A stretch of 62,842 bases of DNA, filler included, from Theionarchaea archaeon (GTDB lineage: Archaea; Methanobacteriota_B; Thermococci; Methanofastidiosales; SZ-28-30), in assembly GCA_018992565.1 (NCBI GenBank). It is 5 parts of 5 records of this genome, joined end to end, with 100 filler letters (N's around TTAATTAATTAA, not from the genome) between each part and the next. Parts side by side here need not be neighbours in the genome. Positions count along the whole stretch, not along the records: positions 29,930 to 44,588 come from JACVGW010000069.1; positions 44,689 to 59,317 come from JACVGW010000070.1; 3 more parts are not named here. One strand, 5' to 3'. The position numbers are program-made. This document shows, one piece after another, positions 33,001 through 45,000 of the stretch (the first letter of the stretch is position 1; each line of letters begins with the position of its first letter).

Positions 33001-36000
33001 GCTTTGCTTTAGTCTCCCCCTTTTCAGTCAGAATGATCCCTTTTTGTCTCCTGTATGTGACAAATCCACTCTTCTCCAGTTTCCTCAACATCTCTACAGC
33101 GCTGGGGGGCTGCACATCCAGCAACTGGGCAATGTCCTTGATCCGGCAAATAGTGTCCCCATTTTCCCTGAGGCACCAGAGGGCTTCCAGATACTCTTCT
33201 CCACTTTCACTCATACCAATACACCTCCTGCTCTCACCAGCAGGGCCAGAATAAAAGCCAACCCAGTGGTTAGAACGACAATATACGTGGTCTTCCGAGT
33301 TCCGAATTCCTTCAGGAGAACACCAATGGCGGCTACACAGGGAACATAGAACATGACAAATACCGTAAACGTCAGAATCTGGACTCTGGTCAGAACATTG
33401 AGCACCTGAGATGTACCTAGCGCCTGGATCAACATAACCAGGGAGAGTTCCTTTTTCAGGACACCAAATATGAGGGTCACTCCCACCGCAGCAGGAAGCC
33501 CCAGCACTAGTGTTACAGGTCTGAGAGTCTGGTTAATGGTGAGATCAACTCCAAAATAGTTCAAGAGACTGAGCACAGCACTTCCTCCAATGAGAAGAGG
33601 CCATGCAATGTATATAAACTCTCTCACTCGAAGCCAGGTTTTCAGCAGCACACTCTTTGCGGAAGGAATATGGTACGTCGGGATCTCCAGTATGAGTCCT
33701 GGTGTAATTTCAGGCATCAATCGTGATAGGATGAGACCCAGTGCCACTATTACGACTATGTTAAAGACATAAAGACCCAGAGCAGCATTGGAAGATATGA
33801 AAAAGGCCACCAACCCCAAGATTACGGTGGTCCGAGCAGCACAGGGTATGAGAGTGGAAATAGTGGCTGTAATGAATCGATCCCGTTCAGATTCCAGGAT
33901 TCGAGTGGCCATTATTGCAGGAACAGTACATCCAAATCCCAGAATAAGAGGTATTATAGCCTTCCCATGGAGCCCAATTCTATGCAGGAAGGTATCCATG
34001 AGAAAAGCTATCCGGGGTAAATATCCAACATCTTCCAGGATGGCAAGTCCAATCAAGAAAGGGACTAGATAAGGCAGGACAATGCCTACGCCTCCAGAAA
34101 ACCCTTCCAATATGCCTTCAGCCATTTTCAGTGATAGCCCACTCAGATAGACCGATAGCAGAGGTACAATTTGTTCAAATGCATCCAAAACGTAAGATTC
34201 CAGCACGCGGCCGATCCCAAAGACAACGTTGAAGAAGATGTAGAGAATAGCACCAAGAGCAACATATCCCGCGTACTTGTGCATCAGCACATCATCCAGC
34301 CGGTCTCTCAGAGAAATCTCAGGTTCTGTGACTTCTCCTACTCTTTCAAAGATGTTCATGGCCTGGGCATGCCTTTCTGAGGAAATTACTACATCTGCGG
34401 GTCTCCCGTGGGACTTCTCAAGTTCTTCCTGAAATTTTCGTACCTTTTTCAGGACTTCAGGATCCTCAATAGACTCTATGAAATATTGGTCATTTTCAAG
34501 GAGTTTTAATGTCAGGAGCCTGCAGGGCACTTTCAAGATTTCACATTCTTTTTCTAGCTCTTTTTCCAGGTTCGTTACAATTTGCTCGATATCCTTGCTG
34601 AATTCGATTTTTCGAGATGTTTTTCCTGCTTTTGCAGTAGCCACGGCGGCCTGGAATACTTCTCTGATTCCCTTTCCTTTAACTGCAACAGCAGTCACTA
34701 CGGGCATTCCCAAAATCCTTTCCAGGTGCTCTGTATCAATATGTATTCCCTTTCGTTCAGCTTCATCCATCATATTCAAAACGAGCACCAGAGGGACATC
34801 TAGCTCAGCGATCTGAATGGTCAATTCCAGACTTCGGGATAGCCGGGAGGCATCCACCACGTTCACCACTACATCTGCCTCATTCCGTAGCAGGTATTTA
34901 CGAGCTTCAAGTTCTGCCAGATCAAAAGAGGTCAGAGAGTAGGTACCAGGAAGGTCTACCACATCCAGTATCTCACCTGAAAACTGGACACGGGATTCAT
35001 TATACTTCACCGTTTTTCCAGGAAAGTTTGAGGTTACTGTCTTGTATCCGGCAATCTGGTTGAACAGCGTGCTCTTCCCGGAATTGGGCTGTCCTGCCAT
35101 GGCCACGATCATGAGATAACCTCAACCATCACCTTCATGGCTACCCCTCTCCCCAGAGCAACTTCATTGGAGTTGACCTGCACTCTGACAGGACCTCTCC
35201 ACAGACTGGAGCTTGCCATGGTCACAACTTGTCCCGGGAGTATGCCCAGCTCACACAATTTCTGTCTGAGACCCCAGCCTCCATGCACTTCAACTACCTT
35301 TGCCTTCTGGCCGGGTTTCAAATTGTCCAATGTCTGAATTAGGCTCACCTAATTTCTTGATGATGATGAGCTTATAAACCTTTGGGTTGTACCAATGATT
35401 TTGCGAGGGATTTGTGCATGTATCATCTCCTGAGAGTACACGGGTCAGTGTTCCATTGATAGGATGAATTTCATTCGCTCGCTCAGATTGCTACAGGGTT
35501 AAATTCCGGAAGAATGTGTGATAATTCTCTGCATATCAACATTGACAATTCAAAACCTATTTATTGGGATAATGCTACTATGTGAAAGAAATGCATAAGG
35601 AATGACATATGAGGAACAATTCGGAGAACACACTATGGATTTAACAGAATCAGAAAAGAGACTCCTCACGCTCATTGGGGAGAATCCCTCACATACCAGA
35701 TGGGAATTGCTGCAAGAGCTCAATTACAAGCGGCCCACTACGCTGAGCAGCAAAATGAGCGAACTGAAAAAAGCAGGATACATCAGGGGGCCATACTATC
35801 ACATCAATCTGAATGCTGTATGTGAGACTCCAGTATACAGTATACTGGCTGAAATTCGATTCAGCCCCAGCCACTACGATGTGGTTTTCAAGAGCATTCT
35901 CTGTATTGACTGTTGGGAGTGGATTTTCCCCACGATACAGGGAGAAACACTCTTTGCATTTTTCAGGTCCTGCGACTGCTCCCATCTCCACCGGTTGTTG

Positions 36001-42000: not shown

Positions 42001-45000
42001 TATGCAGCGAGATTTGCATCAACAGCACGGAATTTCCATCTGCTCGACAGAACTATGGAACTGCAAGTAGTACTATGATGCTCCCCCAGATTATCCGGTA
42101 TGCAGAAGTCATGACAGCTCAGGAAGCTTCTCTATGAATTCTCTGGCATCAGTAACAAGCTGCTGTGCACTATCACTCCTGTCGTTCTTGCCGAGTAACT
42201 CCGCAGCCTCTTCAAGATACCCTAGCGTCAACTCAGCTTGGGCAGGAGTATTGTCTTCCGCTTGCTTCCAGAGGGTGTTGGCATGCGTCCAGAGTCCATT
42301 TGCTCTCTTTCTCAGGGCATTTGCCCTATCCCGAAATTGTCTCTTGAATTCCTCTGAAATGCTTTTTTCGCTCTTCATGGTTCCTGCACTTTCTTGCAGG
42401 CATTTGGTCCTATGAGCCAGGAGGACATCATACACATGACCTATCATCCCATCTGGATGGGTTTCGCCCTCAAGGGTCCATTCATTCTTGGTTATTGCTG
42501 TTATCTCCAATCCGCATGCCTCTTTGACCAAATCAGCTGAATTCTGAATCATGGGCCTGGAAGTGGACGAGTTGTAACCCGAAAGGCTGGCCAGTCTTTC
42601 TGCAGGTGCTGTGCAACTTTGATACCCGTTACACAAATATTCCCAGTGAGTTCCCAGCATGTTAAAGTGAGTGGGAATTATATCGGGCTGCTGCCACCCC
42701 TCACATCGATAGGAGTCAATGAGGAACCTTGAAAGAGATGCTGTCATTTCCACAATAGCTTCTACAAGCTCTTTTTCTTTCTCCACCTGTACAGAAATGA
42801 GAATCACCATTTCATCTCTCATTTCATCGGTGCCGCTCACGTTGAAAAGCAGTGCGTCACCGGTCTTCAACCCCGCTGTTACCGCATCTGCCAAAGTCTT
42901 GTCAGCAGTCCTCCTGATCTGCTGTTCCATGCTGATGATTCTCTTCTTCTCGAATTCAATACTGCTTTCTCCTTGTCTTTCCATGGGCTCGCCTCATCTG
43001 AGAATTCGTCTGGTATTCTTGACATACTTATGAATGAGTACCAACTTAAAAATCTTGGGTTACATGTTGTATCCCTTATCCCCTTCAAGAGAATTACTGA
43101 AAGTAAACTTGCAGAACTCTCTGATAAACCTATGACGGACTCAAAAAAAGAAGAAAAAATAGGGGTTCGGTCAGTCAGCCACGAGGATTTCCTCTGTTCT
43201 TTGCCAGCACCGGGGGTCTTCTCCAAGGAAATCACCCATTGCAGAAGCAGCACCTCTACAGCCTCCGCAGGCAAACTTGTATTTACATGTGCCACATTTC
43301 CCTTCAAGTGCTGATCTGGAATGGCGAAAGTTCTCAAGAAGTTCATTTTCAAACCAGATGTTCTCCAGGTTTTCTTGTGTGGCATCAGCTACAAAGATGG
43401 GGAAATAGGGACAGAGCTGGACAATCCCCTGGGGGTTGATGTAGAGCAGTGTAAAGGCAATTGAGCATCCAGTTACTGCTATCCCCTGCATAAGATCTGA
43501 ATCAGTTTCTATTTCTCTATGTCTCACTTCATTCATAAACATTTCAGGAAAGGGATCACTGAATCCGACTCTCATATTCAATTCTTTACCTGTATCCCAT
43601 ATTCTCTCGCACAGCCTGCGATATTGATCTGCATCCACCAGCTTATGTGAAGCTCGTCCCACAGGGACAAGGTATCGGAAATTGAATATTTTAATGCCAA
43701 TGCTGTCTATAAATCGCATGAGAGCTTCTGGTTCATCTTCTCCTTGATGGAAATATGTCATCCGCACAGCCACAGTGGCATCCTTTTCCACGAGGAGGTT
43801 TAATGCCTGGACAGTCTTTTCAAAGGATCCCCTGCCGCGGACAGAGTCATGTATTTGCGGAGTTGCACCTTCCATGCTGACATTGAACCCTCGAACTGTT
43901 TCCAATAGCCAATCAACGTTTTCAGGAGTTATCAAGGTTGCATTGGTGAGCAATTCAACGTGATTTCCAGGGTGGTTTTCTTTGATGTAGCAGAAAATAT
44001 CCCTGAGGTCTGGTCTCATGAGAGGTTCTCCGCCGGCTATTGCCAGAGCAGCATGTGGTGAAATAGCATGTATCTGATCCAGTAATGAAATAACCTGCTG
44101 GAAGGTGAGATCTGCTGTCGTTTTGTCCAATACGCTTGCACGACAATGCTTACATGCCAGGTTGCACTGGCTTGTAATATCCATCTGTACAATTCTGGGT
44201 GGGTGTTGCCATTTCATGTTATTACCTCTTCTTGTGATCGATAAAAAAATGGGGGCAAAAGCCCCCCATCCCAATTACTTCGGTAGGATGCAGATATCGC
44301 ATCCGCCGCACGGTCCCTGCAAACTAGGATAGAATGGCCGCAGAGGATGTAGTGACTTCAGTTTCTGAAGTCTGTCCTCAACATCCATCTTCTTTGGTTC
44401 TCCTATGACAAGGTCACATCCTCCGCATGGGCCTTGAGCTGCATATACGGGGATTTTGTTCTGTTTCGCATGTTCTAAGGCGTCTATCAACTCTGATACA
44501 GAATAGTGTTTCTCTGTTTCCACTTTTGATCACTTCCTTTTTGGCTGCTATGAGGTCGCTCTTGTTCCACTATGCAACCTCATGCAGGNNNNNNNNNNNN
44601 NNNNNNNNNNNNNNNNNNNNNNNNNNNNNNNNTTAATTAATTAANNNNNNNNNNNNNNNNNNNNNNNNNNNNNNNNNNNNNNNNNNNNCGTCTTTACCAC
44701 TATCTTTAAATAAGACAAGGTAGTTACCTACATAACTCAAGAAAAGGTGTATTGAAATGAGAATACTGGCTATACACTCGGATTTTGTTGAATTTGAGGT
44801 GAAGAAGAAGGCCATGAAAGAGGCCGAAGACACTGCAGAAAAGCACAAAGCAATTGAGGAATGCCTTGTTGTATTCTCTGCTGTGGAGAAAAAGGACGAG
44901 GAGAATCCCGAGGCTACAACCACTCGCTTCGTCAGCGAGGTAAAGGATATTGCTGGACAGGTTGGAACTACACGGATTGTGCTCTACCCTTACGTTCATC

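What a model noticed while it worked through the whole genome (the two positions that open the first line are those of the whole stretch)
35635..42078. Three paralogous cassettes of a wHTH-TPR protein followed by a conserved 31-aa peptide gene (RRNPP-like layout), two bes [...]
Three loci repeat the same set of otherwise unannotated genes: a 123-140-aa protein (g00275, g02579, g01966), a 453-461-aa protein with a winged-helix DNA-binding region and a C-terminal TPR array (g00274, g02578, g01967), and, 180-200 nt (C17, C144) or about 700 nt (C115) downstream on the same strand, a 31-32-aa ORF that the caller missed in two of three cases (C17:6796-6894; C144:2655-2750 = g02577; C115:7213-7308; all minus strand). 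A double-HTH regulator paralog (g00273, g02576, g01965) converges on each peptide gene, and at C17 and C144 a 950-aa CHAT-protease/NB-ARC/TPR STAND protein is transcribed divergently (g00276; the C144 copy, from C144:4985, is uncalled because of an N run). Th [...]
Evidence so far: Paralog families and their repeated order. C144 CHAT-NB-ARC-TPR frame intact up to the N run, 59% identical to g00276 over 443 aa. Domains of g00274: TPR_12 50 bits (TPR hits over residues 241-401), PadR-type winged helix 21.8 bits (residues 115-182, below the cut-off of 27); PADLOC: only a generic TPR model, no known defence system. Small ORFs found in calls 130, 131, 142 (sequences printed there). G032 has three homologs of the HTH-TPR gene (80, 57, 49% id to g00274), G033 one, G031 none; downstream of the first two lie ORFs of the same peptides. 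DNA alignment of the downstream regions: the first ~100 nt after the HTH-TPR stop do not align, then an AT-rich promoter-like block and the ORF a [...]
(Added by a program. Inside this text positions count along the whole contig: they may not be those of the stretch shown here. "Call 12" and the like, gene names such as g00115 and contig names such as C1 are that model's own, and its searches are not shown. The text may have been shortened before it was handed on; [...] marks where a part breaks off. The agent that wrote the report below was given it as the finding of a first reader that could run no searches.)

Follow-up and report, generated by a model that had tools for sequence, protein, structure and literature searches.

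The report
Archaeal small-peptide and regulator gene cassettes
A tiny, strongly conserved peptide gene in an uncultured sediment archaeon sits beside regulator genes in several copies per genome, which resembles the peptide-based cell-to-cell signalling of Gram-positive bacteria that has not been described in archaea.

Summary
The genome (a Theionarchaea-type archaeon) carries three paralogous cassettes, and the 32-aa ORF at window 36725-36823 (minus strand) is a real gene. It has a conserved GAGGTGA ribosome-binding site, a TATA-like box and a 15-bp palindrome upstream. Its last 14 codons show only synonymous change between species (10 synonymous, 0 non-synonymous).

The interpretation needs correcting. 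The peptide gene's constant neighbour is not the wHTH-TPR gene. It is the "double-HTH" gene, which folds as a tandem Lrp/AsnC-type regulator (two wHTH+RAM units).
- All 15 TPR loci that contain this regulator have the peptide gene; none of the 11 TPR loci without it do.
- Peptide-plus-regulator pairs also occur without any TPR gene, in this genus and in other genera of the order.
- In this genome 7 of 10 such regulator genes have a conserved small-ORF neighbour, and four of those carry signal-peptide-like N-termini.
- A further orphan paralogue lies in the same window (50998-51093).

The TPR domain is a generic TPR, not specifically RRNPP-like.

Best reading: a lineage-specific family of peptide + Lrp-like regulator cassettes, probably signalling, with the TPR + 138-aa pair as a frequent add-on. 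Export, processing and binding are all untested.

The parts
36725..36823 (-). 32-aa peptide gene (protein P0002); the conserved functional part is the C-terminal ~12-14 residues after an invariant Gly-Gly
   Evidence: Translation. HMM E 1.6e-19. Orthologue comparison: differences by codon position [2,2,6]. Last 14 codons: 1 synonymous, 0 non-synonymous change against G001. Invariant P19, G21, G22, G25, P31 in alignment A2.
36829..36835 (-). Shine-Dalgarno-like AGGTGAT, 5 nt before the ATG
   Evidence: Sequence. A GAGGTGA-type motif lies 5-8 nt before the start in all 12 distinct upstream regions printed.
36874..36886 (-). A/T-rich TATA-like box, about 55 nt upstream of the ATG (candidate archaeal promoter)
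   Evidence: Sequence. A conserved block in the G000/G001 alignment, while the first ~100 nt after the TPR stop do not align. Promoter function is inferred.
36896..36910 (.). 15-bp palindrome TCTNANNNNNTNAGA with an A/T-rich centre, just upstream of the TATA-like box: candidate operator
   Evidence: Exact in 8 of 12 distinct upstream windows (shuffle mean 0.05); with at most 1 mismatch in 10 of 12 (shuffle mean 1.07). It is the only exact copy in the cassette. Same architecture as the 15-bp Ss-LrpB box (PMC1802622, passages).
35635..36717 (+). Tandem Lrp/AsnC-like regulator (two wHTH+RAM units, 360 aa). It converges on the peptide gene with 7 nt between the stop codons.
   Evidence: AF2 pLDDT 91.3, pTM 0.88. 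Foldseek: NirDL (a fused Lrp-like pair) E 2e-8, then Lrp/AsnC regulators at E 1e-5 and weaker. Profile against PDB: ST1022 E 0.003. Strict co-occurrence with the peptide gene.
37020..38381 (-). Protein with two winged helices and a TPR domain (453 aa)
   Evidence: Pfam TPR_12 50.2 bits, PadR 21.8 bits. AF2 pLDDT 84.5: wHTH at residues 6-78 and 107-184, TPR at 237-391. Foldseek and PDB profile give generic TPR matches.
38596..39012 (-). 138-aa all-helical protein of unknown function; the usual partner of the TPR gene (upstream or downstream of it)
   Evidence: No Pfam, NCBIfam or PADLOC hit. Adjacent to the TPR gene in most loci. Family alignment. Atlas structural look-alikes are HD-type helical domains at TM about 0.6, 'under the bar'.
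39214..42078 (+). CHAT protease / NB-ARC / TPR STAND protein (954 aa), divergent from the 138-aa gene; an accessory neighbour present in only part of the loci
   Evidence: Pfam CHAT 40.9, NB-ARC 41.5, TPR_12 86.5 bits. Present upstream in loci L021, L027, L010, L028-31, L029, L043; absent in L022, L044/46.
50998..51093 (-). Orphan paralogue of the peptide gene (31 aa from the first ATG). Its last 12 residues are identical to those of the C115 peptide. No Lrp-like or TPR gene is adjacent.
   Evidence: Last 12 codons against the C115 copy: 8 synonymous, 0 non-synonymous. Conserved at the syntenic site in G001 with SD, TATA-like box and palindrome-like box.

Best explanation
The 32-aa ORF is a real gene for a small (pro)peptide. 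Its functional unit is the C-terminal ~12 residues that follow an invariant Gly-Gly (pattern GG-x-[P/E]-G-D-D-x-x-[T/S]-P-[C/G]).

Its cognate partner is the convergent 360-aa gene, a tandem Lrp/AsnC-type regulator (two wHTH+RAM units in one chain). Together they form a two-gene module that is a lineage-specific, multi-copy family in Theionarchaea/Methanofastidiosales.

Proposed mechanism:
1. The Lrp-like protein binds the 15-bp A/T-centred palindrome just upstream of the peptide gene's TATA box and controls peptide expression.
2. The peptide, or its processed C-terminal tail, feeds back on a regulator. The candidates are the RAM domains of the Lrp-like protein or the neighbouring TPR protein.
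3. Each paralogous cassette therefore has its own peptide 'code'.

Some family members carry Sec-type signal peptides, and two unlinked genes encode the identical tail. I therefore read the family as secreted signalling propeptides (quorum-sensing-like or autocrine). The wHTH-TPR + 138-aa pair is a separable second module that is often docked next to it, and the CHAT-STAND gene is an occasional neighbour.

Shown: the gene is real, the C-terminus is under selection, the pairing with the Lrp-like gene holds, and a conserved candidate operator exists. Inferred: DNA binding, export, processing, peptide sensing and a signalling role.
For: (1) Coding and expression signals. A GAGGTGA-type SD lies 5-8 nt before the ATG in all 12 distinct upstream regions, with a TATA-like box (window copy). 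Three G000/G001 orthologue pairs differ by codon position [2,2,6], [2,2,9], [5,5,11], with one in-frame 3-nt indel. The last 14 codons show 10 synonymous and 0 non-synonymous changes, while the N-terminal parts show 3 syn/3 non and 4 syn/3 non.

(2) Same tail in unlinked genes. The orphan gene at 50998-51093 and the C115 gene share their last 12 residues with 8 synonymous and 0 non-synonymous differences, while their N-terminal halves barely align. The orphan is conserved in G001.

(3) Partner. The peptide gene is present in 15 of 15 TPR loci that contain the Lrp-like gene and in 0 of 11 that lack it (11 of 11 and 0 of 7 after collapsing near-identical loci). The best non-training HMM hits lie next to Lrp-like paralogues without a TPR gene: C147 (E 0.0095) and G002:C7 (E 0.0037). 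Small SD-preceded ORFs with the same G/P/D-rich tail flank Lrp-like genes in G002:C26 and in genera g7 (G013, G016, G019).

(4) Family in G000. 7 of 10 Lrp-like genes have a conserved small-ORF neighbour. Six of the 113 SD-preceded small ORFs with G/P-rich tails lie within 300 nt of these genes, against 0.27 expected (the criterion was chosen post hoc). Four of the neighbours have signal-peptide-like N-termini; for the two scored, the maximum 10-residue hydropathy is 2.9-3.3 against 0.75-1.57 for the three short ones.

(5) Regulator fold. AF2 pLDDT 91, two wHTH+RAM units. Foldseek hits NirDL and many Lrp/AsnC regulators.

(6) Operator. The 15-bp palindrome is exact in 8 of 12 upstream windows (shuffle mean 0.05). 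It has the same architecture as the Ss-LrpB box (PMC1802622, passages). Related palindromes lie upstream of the G002:C26 peptide gene, which has no TPR gene nearby.

(7) Layout precedent. In streptococci, shp genes lie divergent from or convergent with rgg (PMC3679016, passages).
Against: - No export, processing or import gene is linked to the cassettes. No C39 peptidase was found in the assembly, which is 88% complete.
- The three peptides of the finding lack a signal peptide.
- Lrp/AsnC RAM domains are known to bind amino acids and other small ligands (recalled knowledge). A peptide ligand would be unprecedented.
- By sequence the Lrp-like protein is below Pfam thresholds (HTH_24 14.9 bits against a cut-off of 21.9; no AsnC_trans_reg hit). 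Its best structural match, NirDL, is an enzyme.
- Adjacency alone cannot tell 'regulator of the peptide gene' from 'receptor of the peptide'.
- The loci compared are related, so the co-occurrence counts are not independent events.
- 3 of 10 Lrp-like genes in G000 (C111, C32, C19) have no convincing small-ORF neighbour.
- There are no expression data.
Confidence: 0.45

Rival explanations
1. RRNPP-like system. The wHTH-TPR protein is the cytoplasmic receptor of the peptide encoded just downstream, and the Lrp-like gene is only a co-regulated neighbour or a regulator of the peptide promoter.
For: - The peptide gene lies 183-306 nt downstream of the TPR gene on the same strand in 13 of the 15 peptide-bearing loci, the two C115-type loci aside.
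- TPR grooves commonly bind extended or C-terminal acidic peptides. The best structural matches, LGN/Pins TPRs, are solved as peptide complexes.
- All three TPR genes of G000 and all three of G001 sit beside a peptide module.
- In loci L022 and L044/46 the TPR gene keeps the peptide and Lrp-like genes but lacks the 138-aa gene. So the TPR gene always has either the 138-aa gene or the peptide gene as a small neighbour.
- In G000 the TPR-linked peptides are the ones without signal peptides.
Against: - 11 of 26 informative TPR loci have no peptide gene.
- Peptide + Lrp-like pairs occur with no TPR gene in the locus: G002:C7, G002:C26, C147, the first C115 pair, and genera g7.
- The TPR domain has about 4.5 repeats and is generic. 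Profile E-values are 2.6e-4 for NprR and 2.7e-4 for Rap3T, against about 1e-36 for consensus TPR.
- The HTH is a winged helix, not the XRE type.
- There is no signal peptide.
Confidence: 0.2
2. The small ORFs are precursors of secreted effector peptides (an archaeocin-like antimicrobial or a RiPP), not signals. The Lrp-like protein simply regulates their production.
For: - Several family members have signal peptides, and the tails are Cys/Asp/Gly/Pro-rich.
- A radical-SAM/SPASM gene lies at window 43171-44274 and is conserved in the same position in G001 at 84% identity.
- Another radical-SAM/SPASM gene lies about 1 kb from the C147 peptide gene.
- The family is multi-copy and diversifying.
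Against: - G000 has at least 18 radical-SAM/SPASM matches, so proximity to 2 of about 10 modules is near the chance expectation.
- No such gene lies beside the C144 or C115 cassettes.
- Both Cys positions are replaceable (S/Y/L at the first, G at the last), and one g7 peptide has no Cys at all. This argues against thioether chemistry.
- No transporter or immunity gene is linked.
Confidence: 0.17
3. The 31-32-aa products stay in the cell and act as small protein modulators (anti-regulators) of the Lrp-like or TPR protein. No export or cell-to-cell signalling is involved.
For: - No signal peptide in the three cassettes of the finding.
- No linked exporter, and no C39 peptidase found.
- Tight genetic coupling to cytoplasmic regulators.
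Against: - Related family members have clear signal-peptide-like N-termini.
- Selection is concentrated on a short C-terminal tail preceded by Gly-Gly, with free variation of the N-terminal half. This fits processing better than a folded 3.5-kDa protein.
- Leaderless exported signalling peptides are known in Firmicutes (PMC10518010, search listing/abstract only).
Confidence: 0.12
4. The small ORF is a chance ORF or part of a non-coding element (terminator or antisense region of the convergent gene).
For:
- It abuts the 3' end of the convergent gene.
Against: - The substitution pattern is synonymous-biased and indels are in frame.
- The SD and start codon are conserved.
- The ORF also occurs divergent from its partner gene, or as an orphan.
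- No Rfam family matches in 35000-44500.
Confidence: 0.02

Closest known systems
RRNPP quorum-sensing systems (Rap/Phr, NprR/NprX, PlcR/PapR, PrgX, AimR/AimP) of Bacillota and their phages
   Same: A small propeptide gene sits next to a cytoplasmic regulator gene. The conserved, paralogue-specific information is at the peptide's C-terminus. There are many paralogous pairs per genome, and a TPR-containing DNA-binding protein is in the neighbourhood. (Canonical features from PMC10075063, passages.)
   Different: - The organism is an archaeon.
- The gene that always accompanies the peptide is a tandem Lrp/AsnC-like protein, not the TPR protein.
- The TPR domain is short and generic.
- The HTH is a winged helix.
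- The three peptides of the finding lack a secretion signal.
- No link to Opp or to a processing protease has been shown.
Rgg/SHP systems of streptococci
   Same: A very short peptide gene (about 20-35 codons) lies either divergent from or convergent with the regulator gene, the active part is the C-terminal end, and there are multiple copies per genome (PMC3679016, passages). The same two orientations are seen here.
   Different: The receptor fold is wHTH+RAM (Lrp-like) rather than HTH+TPR-like. The peptides here are Gly/Pro/Asp-rich rather than hydrophobic. No PptAB- or Eep-type export or processing genes were identified.
Archaeal Lrp/AsnC (FFRP) regulators such as Ss-LrpB, LysM, FL11, Ptr2
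   Same: The wHTH + RAM fold. The candidate target is a 15-bp palindrome with an A/T-rich centre next to the promoter, like the Ss-LrpB box (PMC1802622, passages).
   Different: - Two Lrp-like units are fused in one 360-aa chain.
- The sequence is below Pfam thresholds.
- The family is tiny and lineage-restricted: 39 representative clusters at E<=1e-3 among 1.84 billion, and not found in 47 genomes of the sister family f5.
- It is paired with a peptide gene, whereas known effectors are amino acids or small molecules (recalled).
NirDL / AhbAB siroheme decarboxylase
   Same: It is the best whole-chain structural match, because it too is a fused pair of Lrp/AsnC-like units (E 2e-8, TM 0.50/0.57).
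   Different: Only 11% identity. There are 10 paralogues per genome, each beside a small ORF, and no haem-pathway context. An enzymatic role is unlikely but not excluded.
Double-glycine-leader peptides exported by C39-peptidase ABC transporters
   Same: An invariant Gly-Gly immediately precedes the conserved C-terminal tail.
   Different: The leader lacks the usual hydrophobic spacing (judged by eye against the recalled consensus). No Peptidase_C39 match was found in the assembly (88% complete).

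Membership tests
RRNPP | Receptor homologous to the Rap/NprR/PlcR/PrgX/AimR TPR-type peptide-binding superhelix | tested here: not met
   A TPR domain is present, but its matches are generic. Profile against PDB: consensus TPR 2.7e-36, Pins/LGN about 5e-12 to 1e-10, NprR 2.6e-4, Rap3T 2.7e-4. Foldseek: LGN at the top (E 4e-8), Rap at rank 35 with TM 0.34.
RRNPP | Propeptide gene adjacent to the receptor gene | tested here: inconclusive
   Adjacent in the window (197 nt downstream) and in 15 of 26 informative TPR loci. Absent from the other 11, and present without a TPR gene elsewhere.
RRNPP | Propeptide with an N-terminal secretion signal (basic region followed by a hydrophobic region) | tested here: not met
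   Maximum 10-residue hydropathy is 0.75-1.57 for the three peptides of the finding, against 2.9-3.3 for the signal-bearing relatives. No SignalP-type tool was available.
RRNPP | Mature signal derived from the C-terminal end of the propeptide | tested here: inconclusive
   Selection is concentrated on the last 12-14 codons and Gly-Gly is invariant before them. Processing itself cannot be tested here.
RRNPP | Direct binding of the peptide to the receptor | not testable with these tools
   Needs ITC, fluorescence polarisation or a co-crystal.
RRNPP | Oligopeptide permease for re-import | tested here: inconclusive
   8 SBP_bac_5 matches in the genome. None is linked to the cassettes, and such genes are expected anyway in a peptide-fermenting archaeon.
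RRNPP | Found in Bacillota and their mobile elements | tested here: not met
   Relatives are named Theionarchaea / Methanofastidiosia archaeon.
Rgg/SHP-type layout | Short peptide gene divergent from or convergent with its regulator gene | tested here: met
   Convergent, with 7-60 nt between the genes, in all 15 TPR-linked loci. Divergent at C147, C68 and G001:C24. This is a resemblance in layout only.
Rgg/SHP-type layout | Rgg-type HTH + TPR-like receptor | tested here: not met
   The partner folds as a tandem wHTH+RAM protein.
Lrp/AsnC (FFRP) regulators (for the 360-aa protein) | wHTH followed by a RAM (beta-alpha-beta-beta-alpha-beta) domain | tested here: met
   The AF2 model contains two such units. 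Foldseek hits to more than 20 Lrp/AsnC structures, target TM 0.56-0.72.
Lrp/AsnC (FFRP) regulators (for the 360-aa protein) | Sequence match to the family models above threshold | tested here: not met
   HTH_24 14.9 bits (cut-off 21.9), MarR_2 14.7 bits, no AsnC_trans_reg hit. No NCBIfam hit. Profile against PDB: ST1022 E 0.003.
Lrp/AsnC (FFRP) regulators (for the 360-aa protein) | Palindromic ~15-bp box with an A/T-rich centre at a regulated promoter | tested here: inconclusive
   A conserved candidate box lies upstream of the peptide gene. Which protein binds it is untested.
Radical-SAM/SPASM-dependent RiPP | Precursor gene clustered with its maturase | tested here: not met
   A radical-SAM/SPASM gene lies 6.3 kb from the C17 peptide gene and 1 kb from the C147 one, but none lies beside the C144 or C115 cassettes. 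The genome has at least 18 paralogues.
Radical-SAM/SPASM-dependent RiPP | Conserved modifiable residues (Cys) in the core | tested here: not met
   Neither Cys column is invariant, and one g7 homologue has no Cys.
Double-glycine leader / PCAT | C39 peptidase-ABC exporter in the genome | tested here: not met
   PF03412: 0 matches in G000 (88% complete). The control rings in 7 of 14 reference genomes.
STAND NTPase (for the 954-aa protein) | NB-ARC/NACHT ATPase with a repeat sensor and an N-terminal effector | tested here: met
   CHAT 40.9, NB-ARC 41.5, TPR_12 86.5 bits.

The most novel reading that the evidence does not exclude
These cassettes are the first genetically encoded peptide-based cell-to-cell communication systems of Archaea. 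They use a new receptor class: a tandem Lrp/AsnC-type regulator whose RAM domains, alone or together with the neighbouring wHTH-TPR protein, read the C-terminal tail of a secreted propeptide. Paralogue-specific tails act as separate communication channels.
Probability: 0.3. Interest if true: 0.9.

Novelty: new variant of a known kind. Interest (0 to 1): 0.72.

Why it matters
Recent primary papers state that quorum sensing in Archaea is poorly characterised (PMC13464002, abstract; PMC12240190, passages). The signals named there are a carboxylated AHL and a proteinase-K-resistant small molecule.

None of my five literature searches on this question turned up a ribosomally encoded archaeal signalling peptide or an RRNPP-like system in archaea (Theionarchaea). 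The RRNPP_detector paper does not contain the word 'archaea'.

The finding is a compact, testable candidate: a 30-aa gene, a 360-aa regulator and a 15-bp box. It could be checked with synthetic peptides and purified proteins from an uncultured lineage. If it is confirmed, it would extend peptide signalling to a second domain of life and add peptides to the ligand range of the very large Lrp/AsnC family.

Even if the signalling reading fails, the family shows how many real small genes are missed by gene callers in archaeal MAGs.

Tried and rejected
- Complex prediction. Three chains were submitted: TPR residues 186-453, the Lrp-like protein, and the peptide as partner. The verdict was 'no answer' (runs 0.73, 0.09, 0.01; mark 0.32) and the controls were not run. 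It is not used as evidence either way.
- Expression. No RNA holder was listed for window 36500-38400.
- Earlier findings.
- Protein-database search with the peptide alignment.
- Rfam scan of 35000-44500: no family.
- Bacterial-type promoter/terminator scan of 36600-37100: uninformative for an archaeon.
- Palindrome as a regulon marker. It has no further exact copy in the cassette, and the three 1-mismatch copies do not lie in the other intergenic regions. With 2 matches in the whole window it is not enriched there (2.25 expected). Its weight comes from conserved position across loci.
- The 138-aa protein. No family was found. The Atlas structural look-alikes are HD-type helical domains 'under the bar'. 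I saw no HD dyad in the sequence (by eye), so no function is assigned. Its variable loop shows no similarity to the peptide tail.
- Wider search for the Lrp-like family with context: only the same genus was recovered.
- Radical-SAM link: considered and judged near chance.
- Siroheme-decarboxylase function for the Lrp-like protein: considered because of the NirDL match. Rejected as the main reading because of the 10 paralogues and their peptide neighbours.

Full report
**What is there.** The window is a concatenation of five contigs of one assembly (C14, C16, C17, C18, C22) separated by N spacers. C17 begins at window 29930. The cassette consists of:
- a 360-aa gene at 35635-36717 (+) (conserved start)
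- a 32-aa ORF at 36725-36823 (-)
- a 453-aa gene at 37020-38381 (-)
- a 138-aa gene at 38596-39012 (-)
- a 954-aa CHAT/NB-ARC/TPR gene at 39214-42078 (+)

tblastn over the 2.8-Mb assembly confirms paralogous sets on C144 and C115. The CHAT-STAND frame on C144 is interrupted by an N run. On C115 the order differs: TPR gene, then the 123-aa gene, then a ~700-nt gap, then the peptide gene, which converges on the second of two tandem 360-aa paralogues. Relatives of the TPR protein are named Theionarchaea or Methanofastidiosia archaeon. Of 84 hits in a 5.8-billion-protein database, 73 are full family members at E<=1e-76.

**The small ORF is a real gene.** I fetched 28 loci that encode a full or partial TPR homologue, from this genome, two congeners and metagenomes. 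An ORF of 30-33 codons with the same C-terminal pattern lies downstream of the TPR gene in 15 of them.
- Alignment A2 (13 distinct sequences) has invariant P19, G21, G22, G25 and P31, and nearly invariant D26.
- Every copy is preceded by a GAGGTGA-type Shine-Dalgarno motif 5-8 nt before the ATG, and by an A/T-rich TATA-like box (window copy).
- Three G000/G001 orthologue pairs differ mainly at third codon positions ([2,2,6], [2,2,9], [5,5,11]). The single indel is 3 nt.
- In the last 14 codons the three pairs show 10 synonymous and 0 non-synonymous changes. The N-terminal parts show 3 syn/3 non and 4 syn/3 non.
- No Rfam family matches the region.

A chance ORF or an RNA element is therefore very unlikely.

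**The functional part is the C-terminal tail.** A peptide HMM and a tail pattern found a further member in the same window, at 50998-51093 (-).
- Its last 12 residues are identical to those of the C115 peptide, with 8 synonymous and 0 non-synonymous differences. The N-terminal halves barely align.
- It has its own SD, TATA-like box and palindrome-like box, and is conserved at the syntenic site in G001.
- It has no regulator gene beside it.

Two unlinked genes that preserve one dodecapeptide tail behind an invariant Gly-Gly suggest a processed C-terminal product. The three cassettes of the finding carry three different tails, each identical between G000 and G001.

**The constant partner is the 360-aa gene, not the TPR gene.** Annotating all loci gives these counts:

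| TPR loci | With peptide gene |
|---|---|
| 15 that contain the 360-aa gene | 15, convergent, 7-60 nt between the genes |
| 11 with at least 1 kb downstream but no 360-aa gene | 0 |
| 2 with no downstream sequence | not informative |

After collapsing near-identical loci the counts are 11 of 11 and 0 of 7. The loci without the 360-aa gene mostly have a tight TPR-then-138-aa operon.

The converse also holds:
- The best non-training HMM hit in G000 (C147, E 0.0095) and the best hit in G002 (C7, E 0.0037) lie next to 360-aa paralogues with no TPR gene in the locus.
- G002:C26 has two 360-aa genes, each with a convergent small ORF, and no TPR gene.
- In three genomes of another genus (g7: G013, G016, G019), 25-26-codon ORFs with a similar tail lie beside or between 360-aa homologues.

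Within G000, 7 of 10 family genes have a conserved small-ORF neighbour: C17, C144, both C115 genes, C147, C68, and C142 (whose partner lies on C137 across a contig break). Four of these neighbours have signal-peptide-like N-termini. The two scored have a maximum 10-residue hydropathy of 2.9-3.3, against 0.75-1.57 for the three short ones.

By a criterion chosen after seeing the data, 6 of the 113 SD-preceded small ORFs with G/P-rich tails in the genome lie within 300 nt of these 10 genes, where 0.27 is expected. C111, C32 and C19 have no convincing neighbour.

**What the proteins are.**

The 360-aa protein:
- It models with high confidence (pLDDT 91.3, pTM 0.88) as two consecutive wHTH+RAM units.
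- Foldseek finds NirDL, itself a fused pair of Lrp-like units, and then more than 20 Lrp/AsnC regulators. A sequence profile reaches ST1022 only at E 0.003, and Pfam hits are sub-threshold.
- The family is small and lineage-restricted. There are 39 representative clusters at E<=1e-3 among 1.84 billion. It is present in 10 of 34 genomes of the order and in 0 of 47 genomes of the sister family f5.

The 453-aa protein:
- It models (pLDDT 84.5) as two winged helices, a long helix, about 4.5 TPRs and C-terminal helices.
- Its TPR domain matches consensus TPR and LGN/Pins far better than NprR or Rap.

The 138-aa protein is helical and of unknown function.

**Candidate operator.** A 15-bp palindrome (TCTNANNNNNTNAGA, A/T-rich centre) lies 87-133 nt upstream of the peptide start.
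- It is exact in 8 of 12 distinct loci, and present with at most 1 mismatch in 10 of 12. Shuffle means are 0.05 and 1.07.
- The window copy is at 36896-36910, directly upstream of the TATA-like box. It is the only exact copy in the cassette.
- These loci are homologous, so this is conservation and not independent recurrence.
- The architecture equals the 15-bp palindromic, A/T-centred box of the archaeal Lrp-type regulator Ss-LrpB (PMC1802622, passages read).
- Related palindromes precede the G002:C26 peptide gene, where no TPR gene is present.

I therefore infer that the Lrp-like protein is the binder. This is not shown.

**How it most likely works.** Shown: a selected small gene with its own expression signals, paired with a tandem Lrp-like gene. 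Inferred:
1. The Lrp-like protein controls the peptide promoter through the palindrome.
2. The peptide is exported, by Sec where a signal peptide exists and by an unknown route for the leaderless forms. Leaderless signalling peptides do exist in Firmicutes (PMC10518010, listing/abstract only).
3. The peptide is cut after Gly-Gly.
4. The tail is sensed by the Lrp-like protein or by the neighbouring TPR protein.

The TPR + 138-aa pair is a separable module. It occurs alone in 7 distinct loci. It also occurs with the peptide module, with the 138-aa gene either before or after the TPR gene. In L022 and L044/46 the TPR gene is present without the 138-aa gene. The frequent docking suggests a functional link that I cannot specify. 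The CHAT-STAND gene is present in only part of the loci.

**Comparison with known systems.** The logic resembles RRNPP systems, and the convergent or divergent layout particularly resembles Rgg/SHP (PMC3679016, passages; PMC10075063, passages). Membership in RRNPP fails on receptor homology, secretion signal and taxon. No C39 peptidase was found. Eight Opp-type binding-protein matches exist but are unlinked. A radical-SAM/SPASM gene at 43171-44274 is syntenic in G001. However, the genome has at least 18 such genes, the other cassettes lack one, and the Cys residues are not conserved. A RiPP reading is therefore possible but weaker.

**Novelty.** My searches found no archaeal ribosomal signalling peptide or RRNPP-like system. 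Recent papers call archaeal quorum sensing poorly characterised (PMC13464002, abstract; PMC12240190, passages). The paired 'tandem Lrp-like gene + conserved small peptide gene' module appears to be undescribed, and its function remains inference.

**Limits.**
- All evidence is comparative.
- The loci are related.
- Several criteria were chosen post hoc.
- No expression or binding data could be obtained.
- Supplementary files of the cited papers were not consulted.

Noticed in passing
window 50998-51093 (-): An orphan paralogue of the peptide gene in the same window (contig C18). Its 12-residue tail is identical to that of the C115 cassette peptide. It has its own SD, TATA-like box and palindrome-like box, and no Lrp-like or TPR gene nearby. 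Its downstream neighbour on the strand looks like a Taw1/TYW1-type radical-SAM gene (name from recall of the N-terminal sequence, not tested).
   Followed up: yes
window 43171-44274 (-) and 42109-42984 (-): A radical-SAM/SPASM protein (Radical_SAM 82 bits, SPASM 27 bits; its best NCBIfam models, all below cut-off, are TIGR04053, AhbD and NirJ2) and a 291-aa protein with no family. Both lie just beyond the CHAT-STAND gene. The radical-SAM gene is syntenic in G001 at 84% identity. G000 has at least 18 radical-SAM/SPASM matches.
   Followed up: partly
G000 contig C147:55539-59451 (loci L057/L080): A variant module, in order: radical-SAM/SPASM gene, KaiC-like 176-aa gene, 64-aa signal-peptide-bearing small ORF with a G/P-rich tail, then a divergent Lrp-like paralogue.
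   Followed up: partly
G000 genome-wide: In G000 the three small ORFs without signal peptides are exactly the ones beside TPR genes. The four with signal-peptide-like N-termini are at Lrp-like genes without a TPR neighbour. Leaderless forms without a TPR gene do exist in G002 and genus g7, so the correlation is not general. Unexplained.
   Followed up: partly
locus L043:5548-5649 and 6224-6319 (+): One metagenomic cassette carries two tandem peptide genes between the TPR gene and the Lrp-like gene, each with a different tail.
   Followed up: no
G000 contig C111:446-1522 (locus L086): One Lrp-like paralogue has an in-frame TGA. It is followed on the same strand by a 120-aa Cys-rich ORF instead of a G/P-tailed peptide. 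It may be a pseudogene or a different subtype.
   Followed up: no
window 32798-35112 (-): Ordinary neighbours upstream of the cassette: a DtxR-type iron-dependent repressor (138 aa) and FeoB (633 aa). They are not part of the conserved set.
   Followed up: yes
signal-bearing small ORFs at C147, C98:5469-5666, C68:80082-80324, C137:48-251; loci L084, L085, L087: Several signal-bearing small ORFs share an acidic (G)E-D/S-S-D motif just after the hydrophobic segment. This suggests a common processing or recognition site. The C98 ORF has no Lrp-like neighbour.
   Followed up: no
whole window: The window is not one contiguous sequence. It is five contigs joined by N spacers (N runs at 15005-15104, 26566-26665, 29830-29929, 44589-44688, 59318-59417), so distances across those points have no meaning.
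   Followed up: yes
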